DNA of 35,182 nt, filler included, from an uncultured virus (IMG/VR IMGVR_UViG_2049941000_000112) (14 parts of one record of this genome joined end to end with filler, not necessarily neighbours in it), one strand, 5' to 3'; counted from the first letter of the whole stretch, positions 1-34,961 are shown. Made by a program: numbers and translations. The notes: generated from the sequence alone by a model not told the origin.

Positions 1-201
1 TCAACCAATATCTTGGTAGCGGTCACCTTCTGCCCGTCCTTATTGGTATAGGAATCATTCTGTAAACGCCCCTCGATAACCACCTTGGTTCCCTTATGAA
101 CGTACTTCTCAAGAAACTCTGCCGTCTTACCAAATGCCGAGCAATTAAAGAAATCCGCATCCGGTTCTCCGTCCCTCTTAAACCTGCGGTCAACAGCATA
201 A
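1..201 (-). CDS. ssb: single-stranded DNA-binding protein, second allele (fragment)
   Basis: Translates AVDRRFKRDGEPDADFFNCSAFGKTAEFLEKYVHKGTKVVIEGRLQND, a diverged copy of 235..633. Confidence 0.85.
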
Positions 202-234
202 NNNNNNNNNNACGCTTTGCGTTGTACTTGTTCC

Positions 235-633
235 TCATGTAAACGGCAACTCCTCTCCATCGGGTACGTTCATAAATCCCTGTGCATCGGGTGCCGCAGG
301 CTGACTTTCAGCTGATGCCTGCTTGCTCTCCGCAAACTCCATAGAATCAACCAATATCTTGGTAGCGGTCACCTTCTGCCCGTCCTTATTGGTATAAGAG
401 TCATTCTGTAACCTGCCATCAATAACAACCTTTGTGCCTTTCTTAACGTACTTCTCCACAAACTCCGCAGTCTTGCCGAATGCCGAACAATTAAAGAAGT
501 CCGCCTCGGGATCATCATCCCTCTTAAACCTGCGGTCAACAGCGATACTGAAACCTGCTACCGCAGAACCACTCTGTGCATATCTGATCTCGGGATCACG
601 AGTTAATCTTCCCATCATAATAACCTTGTTCAT
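235..633 (-). CDS. ssb: single-stranded DNA-binding protein
   Basis: MNKVIMMGRLTRDPEIRY OB-fold start; acidic C-terminal tail EELPF. Confidence 0.95.
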   Translation of the reverse strand: MNKVIMMGRLTRDPEIRYAQSGSAVAGFSIAVDRRFKRDDDPEADFFNCSAFGKTAEFVEKYVKKGTKVVIDGRLQNDSYTNKDGQKVTATKILVDSMEFAESKQASAESQPAAPDAQGFMNVPDGEELPFT

Positions 634-736
634 TTTNNNNNNNNNNNNNNNNNNNNNNNNNNNNNNNNNNNNNNNNNNNNTTAATTAATTAANNNNNNNN
701 NNNNNNNNNNNNNNNNNNNNNNNNNNNNNNNNNNNN

Positions 737-2264: not shown

Positions 2265-2305
2265 GGTGCTACGGGCATAATCATTGAATCGTCTGTAAGT
2301 GCCAT
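2265..2305 (-). CDS. N-terminus (putative exon 1 start) of the Gly-rich/QCCCD cassette protein
   Basis: AGGAGG RBS then MALTDDSMIMPVAP, cut by a gap; follows 2380..2583 as expected for the gene whose remainder is 33889..34562. Confidence 0.6.
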
Positions 2306-32284: not shown

Positions 32285-32920
32285 TTACATGGTGGGCTTT
32301 TTGTGACTTGCGGAATCCAACGCCCGTTCCGCACTTAACCCCATTACATCAATCCGATGTCTGATCGTAGAATGATGTAGTCCGGTAATTCGACTCCATT
32401 CAGCTAATGTTCTCGTTACTCCGTTGCACGTTATTAAACGATTATCCGAGCGGTTACTTGCTTGAACATCCATACCTACCCACCTACAATTTGATGGTTC
32501 GTAATCCTTGCCAGAATTAATACGGTCAATGCTCAAATCATCCTGGTAACCATGACTTAATGCCCAATCCCTAAACGATTCGAATTTCAGCCATTCATCA
32601 CATACTTTAATGCCCTTGGCACCATACCACTTGTATCCTCGGATGGCAGGATTACTACATCGTTCCCTCATATTGCACCAAATCCCAAATAAACGGGTTT
32701 TTGATTGTCCATGGATCGTGTGATAATCTGCCGCTCTTCTTCTCTGTAAGCATCCACACGAATGTGTATGCCCACTCCTCAAGTGACTAATATCTGTAAT
32801 AAAAACGTTTCCGCAATTGCATTGGCACTTCCATAAACTCTTGCGGCTACTGCTCCTGCCGACATATTCTAATGCGACAGCCTCTCCAAAACGTTGTCCG
32901 GTAATATCTAACCGCCCCAT
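32285..32920 (-). CDS. free-standing HNH-type homing endonuclease
   Basis: DITGQRFG...WKCQCNCG...SCGC...YGAKGIKVCDEW...SIDRINSGKDYEPSNCRW. Confidence 0.85.
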   Translation of the reverse strand: MGRLDITGQRFGEAVALEYVGRSSSRKSLWKCQCNCGNVFITDISHLRSGHTHSCGCLQRRRAADYHTIHGQSKTRLFGIWCNMRERCSNPAIRGYKWYGAKGIKVCDEWLKFESFRDWALSHGYQDDLSIDRINSGKDYEPSNCRWVGMDVQASNRSDNRLITCNGVTRTLAEWSRITGLHHSTIRHRIDVMGLSAERALDSASHKKPTM

Positions 32921-33696: not shown

Positions 33697-33876
33697 AGAC
33701 ATAGAGTCATGCATATAATCCTCTGAATAGCCATCCATAGCCTCAATGGTCTTGATAGATTTCAAGGTATGCGATAACTTGTCAAGGGTATCAAGAGATG
33801 AACTGTTAAGTTCCTTTCTCTCGGCAATACGATCTATCTCGTCACAAAGCATCATTTCTAACTCTTTATAATCCAT
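33697..33876 (-). CDS. helical hypothetical protein (post-lysis cassette, truncated)
   Basis: MDYKELEMMLCDEIDRIAERKEL...LDKLSHTLKSIKTIEAM. Confidence 0.8.
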
Positions 33877-33888
33877 GACAGCACCCCC

Positions 33889-34562
33889 TTATGTAGCAGG
33901 TGTGACAGGATTAGCCACGGTGTACGCCGGAATAGGGTACGGAGCCACCCTGTTAACAATATACTGCGTCTGTGCGGTATTGTCTGCGATAAGAGCCGCC
34001 GTCTGTGCGGTCTGTGATGCAGAGAGGTTAAGCATATTAACCTGGTTCTGAAGTGCGATGTTGGCCGCCTTAAGGTTGTCAATCTCCTGCTGACACATCT
34101 TGTCGAGGATAGCCTGTGTCTGCTCCTGGATCGCAAGTCTTGTAGCCGCACCCTCGTTCTGAACTATGTTCTGTGTCTGACAGGTCGCTAAACGGTTATC
34201 ACAACAGCATTGTGCTAACTGACTTGATAATCCGGTCATTCCGCTTGTAACCGCAGTCTGTGCCGCAAAACTTCTCTCCAGGGATGCGATCTCGTTGCCG
34301 TAAAGCTGACTTGCGATAGCGTTCTGTGCTCCGTTGATGCTTGCATTCACGCCTGCAAAACCTCCGCAGAGTGCGGTCTGCATATCACCAAAACCGGATG
34401 TGATACTGTTCTGAATAGAGTTAACAGATGAATTGAGCATGGAATCTCTGAATCCATCGTTGATCTGGTTTGAATTGTTCAGCCAGGGATACATATTGTT
34501 TCCACCGCCGAAACCACCATTGCCACCCCAACCATTAAAGCAGAGTAACAACAGGATAATCC
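33889..34562 (-). CDS. Gly-rich/hydrophobic plus coiled-coil QCCCD protein, exon 2
   Basis: IILLLLCFNGWGGNGGFGG...QLAQCCCDNR...PYPIPAY; no RBS and an in-frame TAA at 34585-34587. Confidence 0.8.
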
Positions 34563-34961
34563 CAAATGTTATCGTAAAGGCTTTTTATCCTCTACTTCTT
34601 ACGCTTACTTATTCGCGTAAGTTCAGCATATCTTTTCAATTTGCAAATGACAATTATTCCCTTTGCAAATTGTCGCGGTCTCGTGGGTTTCCTTTTTAGG
34701 AATACATGCTTTATACATGCTGTATTATATTCCTACAGGTACATGAATTGATGATTTTTGTATTTGTTTCGTTTTCCGCTCAAAACTCTATGTATAGAGC
34801 CTTTGTTCGTGCAAAAATATCTTGCGCACTCCGACAAACTCTCAAATGTAATCGATGTTCCATCGTCAATGCTAACCGCTTTTATCGGCTTATTCTGCAC
34901 CTTCAAATTTGTGCTTCTTGCGTGGGAGTCATTTTCTTTTGCCGTCACCCATATAAGCCGC
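34563..34961 (-). ncRNA. group I intron (IA-like), 3' half, carrying an HNH endonuclease gene
   Basis: P8-like 11-bp hairpin 34637-34672, then AAGAUAUGCUGAAC, two P9-like hairpins, and GAUAACAUUUG (terminal G) at the exon boundary. Confidence 0.8.
34733..34961 (-). CDS. intron-encoded HNH/NUMOD1-type homing endonuclease, C-terminal fragment
   Basis: LIWVTAKENDSHA (HNH end) plus FESLSECARYF...IHRVLSG (NUMOD1-like HTH). Confidence 0.78.

What the first reader, a model, noticed from the sequence alone, without database searches (positions are those of the whole stretch)
34563..34961. Group I intron with HNH endonuclease interrupting an uncharacterised cassette gene
Seen (minus strand): HNH/NUMOD1 ORF end, a hairpin (UAGGAAUA/UAUUCCUA), CCACGAGACCGCGA, an 11-bp stem CAAUUUGCAAA/UUUGCAAAUUG, AAAAGAUAUGCUGAA, hairpins CUUACGC/GCGUAAG and GUAGAGG/CCUUUAC, then GAUAACAUUUG|GG AUU AUC CUG. 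The host frame has a stop 8 codons upstream and no RBS. Established: this 3' layout parallels IA2 phage introns such as Twort (GAUAUAGUCUGAAC-hairpin-GAAG-hairpin-UAACA..G); group I introns end in G and follow an exon U. U+GG would restore Trp in W-IILLLL. Unusual points: a variant P7 strand (AUAUGCU instead of AUAGUCU) and a target outside the usual nucleotide-metabolism, polymerase or terminase genes. Inference: homing elements favour conserved, useful targets, so this supports the cassette being functionally important. The 5' half is lost in the gap.
Basis: partly seen in the sequence, partly recalled or inferred. Interest (0 to 1): 0.75.

Follow-up and report, generated by a model that had tools for sequence, protein, structure and literature searches.

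The report
Rear half of a phage intron
This is the rear half of a self-splicing (group I) intron that carries a homing-endonuclease gene and interrupts a widespread, uncharacterised membrane-protein gene of a cattle-gut phage; it is a real but ordinary kind of mobile element, cut off by a break in the assembly.

Summary
Window 34563-34960 (minus strand) holds the last 75 codons of an I-HmuI-like HNH/NUMOD endonuclease ORF, then the 3' domain of a Twort-like group I intron ending in G at 34563.

- **Junction:** intronless homologues (about 254 aa) read ...GWW|IILLLL, and TGG precedes the hydrophobic run in 64 of 72 parsed relatives. U + GG therefore restores the predicted Trp.
- **Family match:** a covariance model built from 24 related viral loci hits the window once (34559-34686, 93 bits, E 3.4e-19).
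- **Same site elsewhere:** 22 related loci carry complete introns of this family at the same site of the same gene. P1 and its U.G pair are intact in 21 of 22, and the guide sequence covaries with the exon.
- **P7 variant:** the "variant" strand (UAUGC) is family-wide and is matched by an invariant GCAUA strand, which here lies in the missing half.

The 5' half is absent because the window is a chain of small contigs. The gene's first 14 codons lie at 2305-2265. A public cattle-gut run holds a 2008-nt contig that continues past the break. Splicing and homing are inferred, not shown. Verdict: new member of a known kind, modest interest.

The parts
34733..34960 (-). C-terminal 75 codons plus the stop (TAG 34735-34733) of the intron-encoded HNH/NUMOD homing endonuclease. 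The N-terminal part (about 87 residues, by alignment to the 161-aa L003 ORF) is lost at the contig end.
   Evidence: phrog_20162 HNH endonuclease, E 4.4e-9. PF22083 I-HmuI NUMOD-like, 23.3 bits (cut-off 27). 43% identical, end to end, to residues 88-161 of the 161-aa intron ORF of L003, which has NUMOD4 + HNH_3 + NUMOD1/I-HmuI NUMOD-like domains. A loose end of a public contig continues the frame as ..KENNSADNLEW, the HNH motif region.
34687..34732 (-). Post-ORF segment. It holds the conserved GAAUAUAAU motif (34732-34724) directly after the stop, then 37 nt before CCACGAG. It is probably the 3' side of the P7.1-type extension into which the ORF is inserted.
Evidence: The same motif and position occur in the ORF-less relatives (..GA(A/U)AUAAU + 4-5 nt stem strand + CCACGAG) and directly after the stop of the L003 ORF. 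The partner strand would lie upstream of the ORF and is not in the window.
34673..34686 (-). CCACGAG (conserved joiner) plus ACCGCGA, the 3' strand of P3.
   Evidence: This aligns to model R1 positions 1-14. In 16 distinct full-length relatives the P3 3' strand pairs with a 5' strand near the intron start, and 6 of 6 pairs covary. The partner (expected UCGCGGU) is in the missing half.
34637..34672 (-). P8 hairpin: an 11-bp perfect stem with a 14-nt loop.
   Evidence: P8 covaries in the family: 4 of 5 pairs change on both sides.
34622..34636 (-). J8/7 and the 3' strand of P7 (AAAAGAUAUGCUGAA; P7 strand UAUGC at 34630-34626, with G at 34624).
   Evidence: Invariant in the family. It pairs with GCAUA inside the invariant GCAACGCAUAG (helix 3, 100% paired, no variation). 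The Twort equivalent is CGACUAU with AUAGUCUG. The 5' strand is not present anywhere in the window.
34598..34621 (-). P9 hairpin (CUUACGC / GCGUAAG, 10-nt loop).
   Evidence: In the family, 6 of 7 pairs change on both sides.
34574..34595 (-). P9.1-type hairpin (GUAGAGG / CCUUUAC) with the conserved loop AUAAAAAG.
   Evidence: In the family, 7 of 7 pairs change on both sides.
34563..34573 (-). 3' tail GAUAACAUUUG ending in the terminal G (omega-G, 34563). The 3' splice site lies between 34563 and 34562.
   Evidence: Homology to intronless proteins begins with the GG of the Trp codon at 34562. 22 of 22 same-site relatives end ..AACA(N2-6)G before GG/TA. Unrelated public contigs that share the intron's 3' end diverge at 34563-34567 (tables 7, 8).
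33889..34562 (-). Exon 2 of the host gene (GG + 223 codons + stop). It belongs to a phrog_16490-type protein with a transmembrane helix, Gly-rich linkers, a long helix with a CCCDN motif, and a YPIPAY tail.
   Evidence: phrog_16490, E 7.6e-19, matching profile positions 37-258 of 286. Homologues are 76-88% identical and mostly 239-268 aa long, with two 201-aa gene calls. The AlphaFold2 model of close relative P0002 has helix 29-37 and helix 98-235; mean pLDDT is 66 overall and exceeds 90 over residues 171-230.
2265..2305 (-). Start of exon 1 on another contig piece: ATG 2305-2303 and 14 codons (MALTDDSMIMPVAP), preceded by AGGAGG at 2319-2314 and cut by a contig linker.
   Evidence: tblastn of homologues' N-termini, E 4e-4; sequence. 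It may come from a co-assembled strain, because the window holds two variants of the SSB gene.

Best explanation
Window 34563-34960 (minus strand) is the 3' part of a mobile group I intron of the Twort-like (subgroup IA-type) kind. It interrupts the gene for a roughly 254-aa membrane-anchored helical phage protein (phrog_16490). The insertion lies after the first base of the Trp codon that opens the transmembrane helix.

Proposed mechanism:
1. The gene is transcribed with the intron.
2. The intron RNA folds into P1-P9. P7 is formed by GCAUA with UAUGC, and P3 by UCGCGG-type with CCGCGA.
3. A free guanosine attacks after the exon U, which is held in a U.G pair by the guide GCCANN.
4. The freed exon end attacks after the terminal G (34563).
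5. This joins U to GG AUU AUC and restores ..GW-W-IILLLL..

The intron carries an I-HmuI-like NUMOD4-HNH-NUMOD endonuclease ORF in the extension between P7 and P3'. That enzyme would cut or nick intronless copies of the gene in co-infecting phages or prophages, and repair would then copy the intron in (homing).

Shown: the 3' domain, the splice-site position, the ORF identity, intact introns at the same site in relatives, and intronless relatives. Inferred: the existence and integrity of this copy's 5' half, splicing, endonuclease activity and homing.
For: 1. **Junction.** 14 of 15 aligned homologues carry an N-terminus ahead of the junction (13 from the initiator Met, about 34-37 residues; P0086 shorter) ending in W directly before IILLLL; the 15th, P0115, is a short gene call starting at MYPW. 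The codon before the hydrophobic run is TGG in 64 of 72 parsed intronless viral loci; 8 of the 80 loci were not parsed. The phrog_16490 match starts at profile position 37.

2. **Family.** blastn finds 75 phage records matching only window 34639-34564. 56 viral contigs hold the window's 19-mer. Model R1 of the 3' domain gives a single window hit, 34559-34686, 93 bits, E 3.4e-19, with all 20 pairs standard.

3. **Same site, same gene.** 22 of the 56 contigs have the host-gene homologue directly downstream. I analysed 22 loci with both splice sites: 21 of those plus PQ006093.1, making 20 distinct introns.
   - All 22 have an exon 1 ending TGGT, an intron ending in G, and a junction restoring GW-W(I/L/V)I.. 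or GW-LILLLL.
   - P1 has 6 of 6 pairs including U.G in 21 of 22.
   - The guide covaries with the exon: GCCAAC, GCCAAG, GCCATG, GCCATC, GCCAAT.

4. **Structure.** On 16 distinct ORF-less relatives, 96.8% of cells pair (slid controls 29-39%). 31 of 43 pairs change on both sides, and 0 of 500 shuffles reach this.

5. **Group I identity.**
   - RF00028 scores 53 bits (gathering score 50) on family member L009.
   - RF00028 scores 26.9 bits (E 6.6e-5) on the same-site intron of PQ006093.1.
   - R1 hits four Twort intron sites.

6. **Sporadic distribution.** None of the 80 closest viral relatives of the host gene has the intron's 3' end (nhmmer).

7. **Independent assemblies.** In run X1 a 707-nt contig bridges the 3' splice site. 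A 2008-nt contig is identical over 34572-34952 and runs on past the window's contig end.

8. **ORF.**
Against: - The window itself gives no RF00028 match, even at E <= 10.
- The 5' half is absent from the window: P1 guide, P3 5' strand, P4-P6 and P7 5' strand. The catalytic core of this copy therefore cannot be checked, and a decayed 5' half cannot be excluded.
- P7 never varies within the family, so within the family its pairing rests on complementarity alone. The only support from variation is one comparison with Twort.
- R1 was built from loci chosen for sharing the window's own 19-mer (23 of 24 rows). Part of the 93 bits is therefore by construction, and its E-values are rough.
- One of the 22 same-site relatives (L026) showed only 4 of 6 P1 pairs under my simple rule.
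- No RNA evidence of exon ligation was obtained.
- The exon-1 fragment at 2305-2265 may belong to another strain.
Confidence: 0.9

Rival explanations
1. Decayed intron or pseudogene: the element is of intron origin, but this copy has lost splicing ability (damaged 5' half or guide), so the host gene is inactive or expressed only from an internal start.
For: The 5' half cannot be inspected. The gene call on record for the window's own gene starts at the internal ATG (MYPW, 201 aa, P0001).
Against: All three 3' hairpins and all conserved joiners are intact, and all model pairs are standard. The ORF fragment is open over 75 codons and ends where its relative ends. Exon 2 has no stops and is 76-88% identical to intact homologues. 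A public contig continues in frame through the HNH motif.
Confidence: 0.06
2. Free-standing HNH endonuclease gene followed by an ordinary intergenic region (terminator hairpins), with an N-terminally shortened version of the downstream gene.
For: Free-standing HNH genes are common in phages, and one lies at 32285-32920 in this window. Hairpins followed by a gene could look like this.
Against: The 'intergenic' 128 nt match the 3' domain of a group I family with covarying helices. Homology to the host protein runs up to the G|GG junction, with no start codon and a stop 8 codons upstream. Complete introns flanked by both exons occur at this site in 22 relatives. The gene's true start is elsewhere in the window.
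Confidence: 0.02
3. Assembly chimera: an intron 3' end from another phage was wrongly joined to exon 2 through a shared repeat.
For: The window is a patchwork of small contigs holding at least two strains. The intron's 3' end (34566-34601) is a repeat shared by many contigs in the same runs.
Against: A Logan contig of 707 nt spans 33887-34593 across the junction, though probably from the same sample. The same intron-exon junction (..AACA..UUG|GGAUUAUC) is seen in independent viral contigs such as L019 and L055.
Confidence: 0.02

Closest known systems
Group I introns of Staphylococcus phage Twort (NC_007021.1). Subgroup IA2 and the orf142 naming are recalled, not tested.
   Same: The 3' layout is the same: P3' strand, P8, J8/7 AAGAUAU.., P7 strand, CUGAAC, P9 hairpin, GAAG, a second hairpin, then UAACA..UUG. 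Model R1 finds four Twort sites at E 2e-6 to 2e-3. Both share GCAACG before P7 and have an extra hairpin between P7 and P3'.
   Different: P7 is GACUA/UAGUC in Twort and GCAUA/UAUGC here: two adjacent pairs swapped on both strands. The scores differ widely (26-39 bits in Twort, 93 in the window). Host genes and hosts also differ.
Unannotated same-site introns in viral contigs (L003, L055, L019 and others), in Bajarodcaudo virus 2 (PQ006093.1), and in an uncultured Clostridia MAG (L152)
   Same: Same gene family, same insertion point (TGG T|GG AT.), same intron family. L003 also has the same ORF type at the same place in the intron, 43% identical.
   Different: 16 of the 22 carry an ORF; I read 4 of the ORF-bearing introns besides L003 (L042, L019, L005, L001) and all 4 have the HNH ORF in the P8 loop, and 6 of the 22 have no ORF of 70 aa or more. 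In the 22 same-site loci the host proteins are only 26-63% identical to the window's. None is a near-identical copy of this intron.
I-HmuI-type HNH homing endonucleases of Bacillus phage SPO1/SP82 DNA-polymerase introns (the biology is recalled; the domain names come from Pfam)
   Same: Intron-encoded enzyme with an HNH_3 catalytic domain and a NUMOD-type DNA-binding tail. PF22083 'I-HmuI NUMOD-like' matches the window fragment (23.3 bits) and L003 (34.6 bits).
   Different: Only the last 75 residues are present here. The target gene and the position of the ORF in the intron differ. Nicking activity is untested.
Rfam RF00028 (Intron_gpI)
   Same: Family members reach it: L009 at 53 bits and PQ006093.1 at 26.9 bits, with P3-P8 and J8/7 aligned.
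   Different: Only 1 of 19 loci searched at the gathering threshold had its family copy reported. The window fragment gives nothing.
Spliced group I introns in capsid and tail genes of Cluster J mycobacteriophages (PMC3706429; passages read)
   Same: This is a precedent for phage introns, one with a homing endonuclease, in late or virion genes rather than nucleotide-metabolism genes.
   Different: Unrelated hosts and, as far as I tested, unrelated intron sequences. Splicing was shown there and not here.

Membership tests
Group I intron | Last intron nucleotide is G (omega-G), directly before exon 2 | tested here: met
   G at 34563. Protein homology to intronless genes starts at GG at 34562. 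Unrelated contigs that share the intron end diverge at 34563-34567.
Group I intron | Exon 1 ends in U, which forms a U.G pair in P1 with an internal guide sequence | not testable with these tools
   The 5' half of this copy is not in the window. In 22 same-site relatives exon 1 ends TGGT, and P1 has 6 of 6 pairs including U.G in 21, with a covarying guide.
Group I intron | Conserved core: P3-P8 domain and the P7 pseudoknot that forms the guanosine site | tested here: inconclusive
   The window has P8 complete, plus the P3 3' strand and the P7 3' strand. Their partners are missing. In the family, 6 of 6 P3 pairs covary. P7 pairs in 16 of 16 rows but never varies. The swap relative to Twort is compensatory.
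Group I intron | Match to the curated covariance model RF00028 at its gathering score | tested here: not met
   No hit in the window at the gathering threshold or at E <= 10. This is expected for a 128-nt 3' fragment. Relatives: L009 at 53 bits (met), PQ006093.1 at 26.9 bits (below).
Group I intron | Removal restores an uninterrupted conserved reading frame | tested here: met
   U + GG AUU AUC gives W-I-I, as in homologues that read GWW|IILLLL. The frame is otherwise closed 8 codons upstream.
Group I intron | Self-splicing with guanosine | not testable with these tools
   No experiment was done. Laid RNA-library contigs do not include exon 1, so no joint could be seen.
Mobile (homing) intron | Sporadic presence: close relatives of the host gene lack it, at a precise empty site | tested here: met
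   0 of the 80 closest viral loci have the intron's 3' end. 72 of them read straight through the site.
HNH homing endonuclease, I-HmuI-like (NUMOD4 / HNH_3 / NUMOD1) | HNH catalytic motif | tested here: inconclusive
   Only the end of the motif is in the window (..WVTAKENDSH), and it aligns to LEWCTAQENDHH of L003. A 30-nt loose end of a public contig adds KENNSADNLEW. The His-containing start of the motif is not seen.
HNH homing endonuclease, I-HmuI-like (NUMOD4 / HNH_3 / NUMOD1) | NUMOD-type DNA-binding C-terminal domain | tested here: inconclusive
   PF22083 scores 23.3 bits against a cut-off of 27. PHROG HNH families match at E 4.4e-9 to 4e-6. The 43%-identical L003 ORF passes PF22083 (34.6), HNH_3 (33.0) and NUMOD4 (33.5).

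The most novel reading that the evidence does not exclude
The window samples an under-annotated, widespread lineage of Twort-like group I introns, marked by a swapped P7 (GCAUA/UAUGC) and largely missed by Rfam at its gathering score. This lineage has made the first codons of the membrane anchor of one accessory phage protein a recurrent homing site across gut and rumen phages. Within that single site, the HNH gene has been acquired at two different places in the ribozyme: the P7-P3' extension (as here and in L003) and the P8 loop. That would make it a natural series for studying how endonuclease genes and ribozymes combine.
Probability: 0.5. Interest if true: 0.4.

Novelty: new member of a known kind. 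Interest (0 to 1): 0.3.

Why it matters
For annotation, the gene here is not a 201- or 220-aa protein with an odd start. It is a split gene of about 254 aa, and gene callers truncate it: two 201-aa calls appeared among the 120 best hits, one of them the window's own.

The intron also explains why the assembly breaks here. Its conserved end is a repeat shared by many phages in the same samples.

More broadly, this intron family is common in gut and rumen phages, yet Rfam reported the family copy at its gathering score in only 1 of 19 related loci. Intron-split phage genes are therefore probably under-counted.

The repeated use of one site gives a defined DNA target, about GGN TGG T^GG ATY ATY CTG, for testing an uncharacterised HNH homing endonuclease. 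This does not change what is known about group I introns.

Tried and rejected
- **Rfam on the window.** Nothing at the gathering threshold, and no group I match in 34400-34961 at E <= 10.
- **Own genome.** None is held.
- **Search for a near-identical intact copy.**
  - A 28-mer and a 19-mer from P3'/P8 found 0 viral contigs.
  - The 19-mer in metagenome contigs gave 6 loci, all chance matches of about 20 nt.
  - A degenerate P9.1-to-junction pattern in genome contigs gave one locus (L152, uncultured Clostridia MAG). It is ORF-less, at the same site, and no closer to the window than the others.
- **5' half elsewhere in the window.** GCAACGCATAG with up to 1 mismatch gave 0 matches.
- **Laying public contigs.** This gave no information on splicing, because exon 1 is not in the stretch laid. 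Stretches without cover and depth differences were not interpreted. An RNA-library contig identical to 34682-34920 may be DNA carry-over.
It is complementary but not in the MFE or centroid fold. L003 has a hairpin nearby but in another register, so I do not assign it.
- **P7.1 stem across the ORF.** I could not find a convincing stem in L003 by eye.
- **Host protein fold.** The AlphaFold2 model has mean pLDDT 66 and pTM 0.30. It shows a short helix and one long helix. I ran no fold search, because a single long helix gives meaningless matches.
- **Splice-site script.** My first script picked wrong sites and was replaced.
- **Other element types.** An intein is excluded by stops in frame. No evidence pointed to a group II intron.

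Full report
**What is in the window**

The window is not one molecule. It is a chain of small contigs joined by 44N-TTAATTAATTAA-44N linkers and 10-N gaps. The finding lies on a 1265-nt piece, 33697-34961.

Read on the minus strand, this piece holds:
- an open frame from the contig end to a TAG stop at 34735-34733;
- 170 non-coding bases;
- from 34562, a frame that runs to a stop at 33889.

The downstream frame is closed 8 codons upstream of the first Ile codon (ATT, 34560-34558), with no start codon between.

**The ORF**

- The 75-residue fragment matches HNH-endonuclease PHROGs (best E 4.4e-9).
- It also matches Pfam PF22083 (I-HmuI NUMOD-like), at 23.3 bits, just under the cut-off of 27.
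- It aligns end to end, at 43% identity, with residues 88-161 of a 161-aa intron ORF in viral contig L003. That ORF passes NUMOD4, HNH_3 and PF22083.

**The host gene and the junction**

- Exon 2 matches phrog_16490 from profile position 37 of 286.
- It has thousands of relatives. 7993 of 8000 scored candidates had E <= 1e-3. 1001 clusters at 50% identity had E <= 1e-3. Most are 250-260 aa long.
- In an alignment of 15 relatives, 14 carry an N-terminus ahead of the junction (13 from the initiator Met, about 34-37 residues) that ends in Trp directly before IILLLL. The 15th (P0115, 201 aa) is a short gene call like the window's own.
- Of the 80 closest viral loci, my script parsed 72. The codon before the hydrophobic run is TGG in 64 of them.

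The true start of the gene is also in the window, on another piece. ATG at 2305 with AGGAGG upstream is followed by MALTDDSMIMPVAP and then a contig linker. The window holds two variants of an SSB gene, so this piece may come from a co-assembled strain.

**Is the non-coding stretch an intron?**

Rfam finds nothing in the window. Comparison with relatives gives a different picture.

- blastn against phage records finds 75 records that match only window 34639-34564. These include Staphylococcus, Clostridioides and Alicyclobacillus phages.
- The window's 19-mer around the P7 strand occurs in 56 viral contigs.
- 22 of those 56 have a homologue of this same host gene directly downstream.

I analysed the 21 of these that have both splice sites on the contig, plus Bajarodcaudo virus 2 (PQ006093.1). 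That makes 22 loci and 20 distinct introns. Results:
- All 22 have an exon 1 ending TGGT and an intron ending in G.
- All 22 junctions restore GW-W(I/L/V)I.. or, in two loci, GW-LILLLL.
- P1 forms 6 of 6 pairs including the U.G pair in 21 of 22. L026 gave 4 of 6 under my simple rule.
- The guide sequence changes with the exon: GUUGGU/GCCAAC, CUUGGU/GCCAAG, CAUGGU/GCCAUG, GAUGGU/GCCAUC, AUUGGU/GCCAAU.

RF00028 reaches its gathering score on family member L009 (53 bits). It scores 26.9 bits (E 6.6e-5) on the 248-nt ORF-less intron of PQ006093.1. Only 1 of the 19 loci searched at the gathering threshold had its family copy reported.

**Structure of the family**

An alignment of 18 ORF-less members (16 distinct) gives a consensus with P3, a P4/P5 stem, a hairpin between P7 and P3' (P7.1-type), P8, P9 and a second 3' hairpin. 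I added P7 as a pseudoknot and counted pairs:
- 96.8% of cells form standard pairs, against 29-39% when partners are slid by 1-3 columns.
- 31 of 43 pairs change on both sides.
- 0 of 500 shuffles reach any of the five measures.
- All six P3 pairs covary.
- P7 (C-GCAUA with UAUGC-U-G) pairs in all rows but never varies.

Twort reads CGACUAU with AUAGUCUG at the same places. The family's 'variant' P7 strand is therefore matched by a swap on the other strand.

**The window's copy**

Model R1 was built from the 3' domain of 24 relatives. It hits the window once, at 34559-34686, with 93 bits, E 3.4e-19, over its full length and with all pairs standard.

Caveat: 23 of the 24 rows were chosen because they share the window's 19-mer, and the calibration is short.

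R1 also finds four sites in phage Twort (E 2e-6 to 2e-3).

**Position of the ORF**

In the window and in L003, the ORF stop is followed at once by the conserved GA(A/U)AUAAU motif. In ORF-less members that motif lies inside the P7.1-type hairpin, before CCACGAG. The ORF therefore sits between P7 and P3'. As a result, the P7 5' strand lies upstream of the ORF, in the missing part. It is nowhere in the window.

In the four other ORF-bearing same-site introns that I read (L042, L019, L005, L001), the HNH ORF sits in the P8 loop.

**Mobility**

None of the 80 closest viral relatives of the host gene has the intron's 3' end. In one of them (L059), the intact 254-aa gene lies among small unknown genes between an endolysin and an integrase.

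**Public reads**

The stretch occurs in cattle-gut runs. Results:
- In run X1 a 707-nt contig crosses the 3' splice site.
- A 2008-nt contig is identical over 34572-34952 and runs on. Its first 30 further bases continue the frame as KENNSADNLEW, the HNH motif region. The window's last 9 bases differ from it.
- Many other contigs share only 34566-34601/34639 and diverge at 34563-34567. This marks the element's 3' boundary independently.
- A contig from an RNA library is identical to 34682-34920. This may be transcription or DNA carry-over.
- Nothing bears on exon ligation.

**Host protein**

An AlphaFold2 model of the close relative P0002 has mean pLDDT 66. It shows a disordered Gly-rich head, a short helix at 29-37 (the WWIILLLLC anchor) and one long helix at 98-235. 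The function remains unknown.

**Comparison and novelty**

This is a group I intron with an I-HmuI-like HNH ORF, a well-known kind of phage element. Introns in late or structural genes are also known:
- Relatives of this family lie beside tail genes in phiCD211, next to an annotated Intron_gpI, and in a Staphylococcus epidermidis phage.
- Spliced capsid- and tail-gene introns are described for Cluster J mycobacteriophages (PMC3706429, passages read).

My two literature searches were general. I did not search specifically for this gene family, so I make no claim that its intron is unpublished.

**Verdict**

Observation confirmed and interpretation supported. This is a new member of a known kind. 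Splicing, endonuclease activity and homing are inferred. Interest is modest.

Noticed in passing
window 1-200 and 212-636 (minus strand): Two similar but non-identical copies of a single-stranded-DNA-binding protein gene fragment lie side by side, separated by a 10-N gap. The window therefore mixes at least two related phage strains, and the order of its pieces is not reliable.
   Followed up: no
window 32285-32920 (minus strand): A complete free-standing HNH endonuclease gene of 211 aa (phrog_374, E 1.2e-67) that is unrelated in sequence to the intron ORF fragment.
   Followed up: no
L003 (IMG/VR contig of 175,955 nt), intron ORF and neighbouring genes: The intron ORF has one in-frame TAG that aligns with Gln in the window's ORF. 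The host gene's exon 2 and an upstream gene also carry in-frame TAGs. This large phage probably reads TAG as a sense codon (Gln).
   Followed up: partly
L144 (Clostridium phage phiCD211, LN681537.2, 28792-29156): The family's 3' domain match ends 30 nt before a separately annotated Intron_gpI, between the minor tail and tape-measure genes. These may be two adjacent introns, or one intron annotated only in part.
   Followed up: no
L008 4606-4821: A second, different group I intron (RF00028, 100.5 bits) lies about 1 kb downstream of the family copy in the same viral contig.
   Followed up: no
window 34953-34961: The last 9 bases of the window's contig differ from the otherwise identical 2008-nt public contig (RLIW here, NLEW there). 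This is probably a contig-end artefact or a strain branch point.
   Followed up: partly
window 34682-34920: A 239-nt contig from a cattle metatranscriptome library (run X16) is identical to the ORF end and the post-ORF segment. This hints at expression, but it could be DNA carry-over.
   Followed up: no
L002 and L048 (viral contigs): These hold the 19-mer but lack the conserved 3' hairpins seen in the other loci. They are probably not introns of this family.
   Followed up: no
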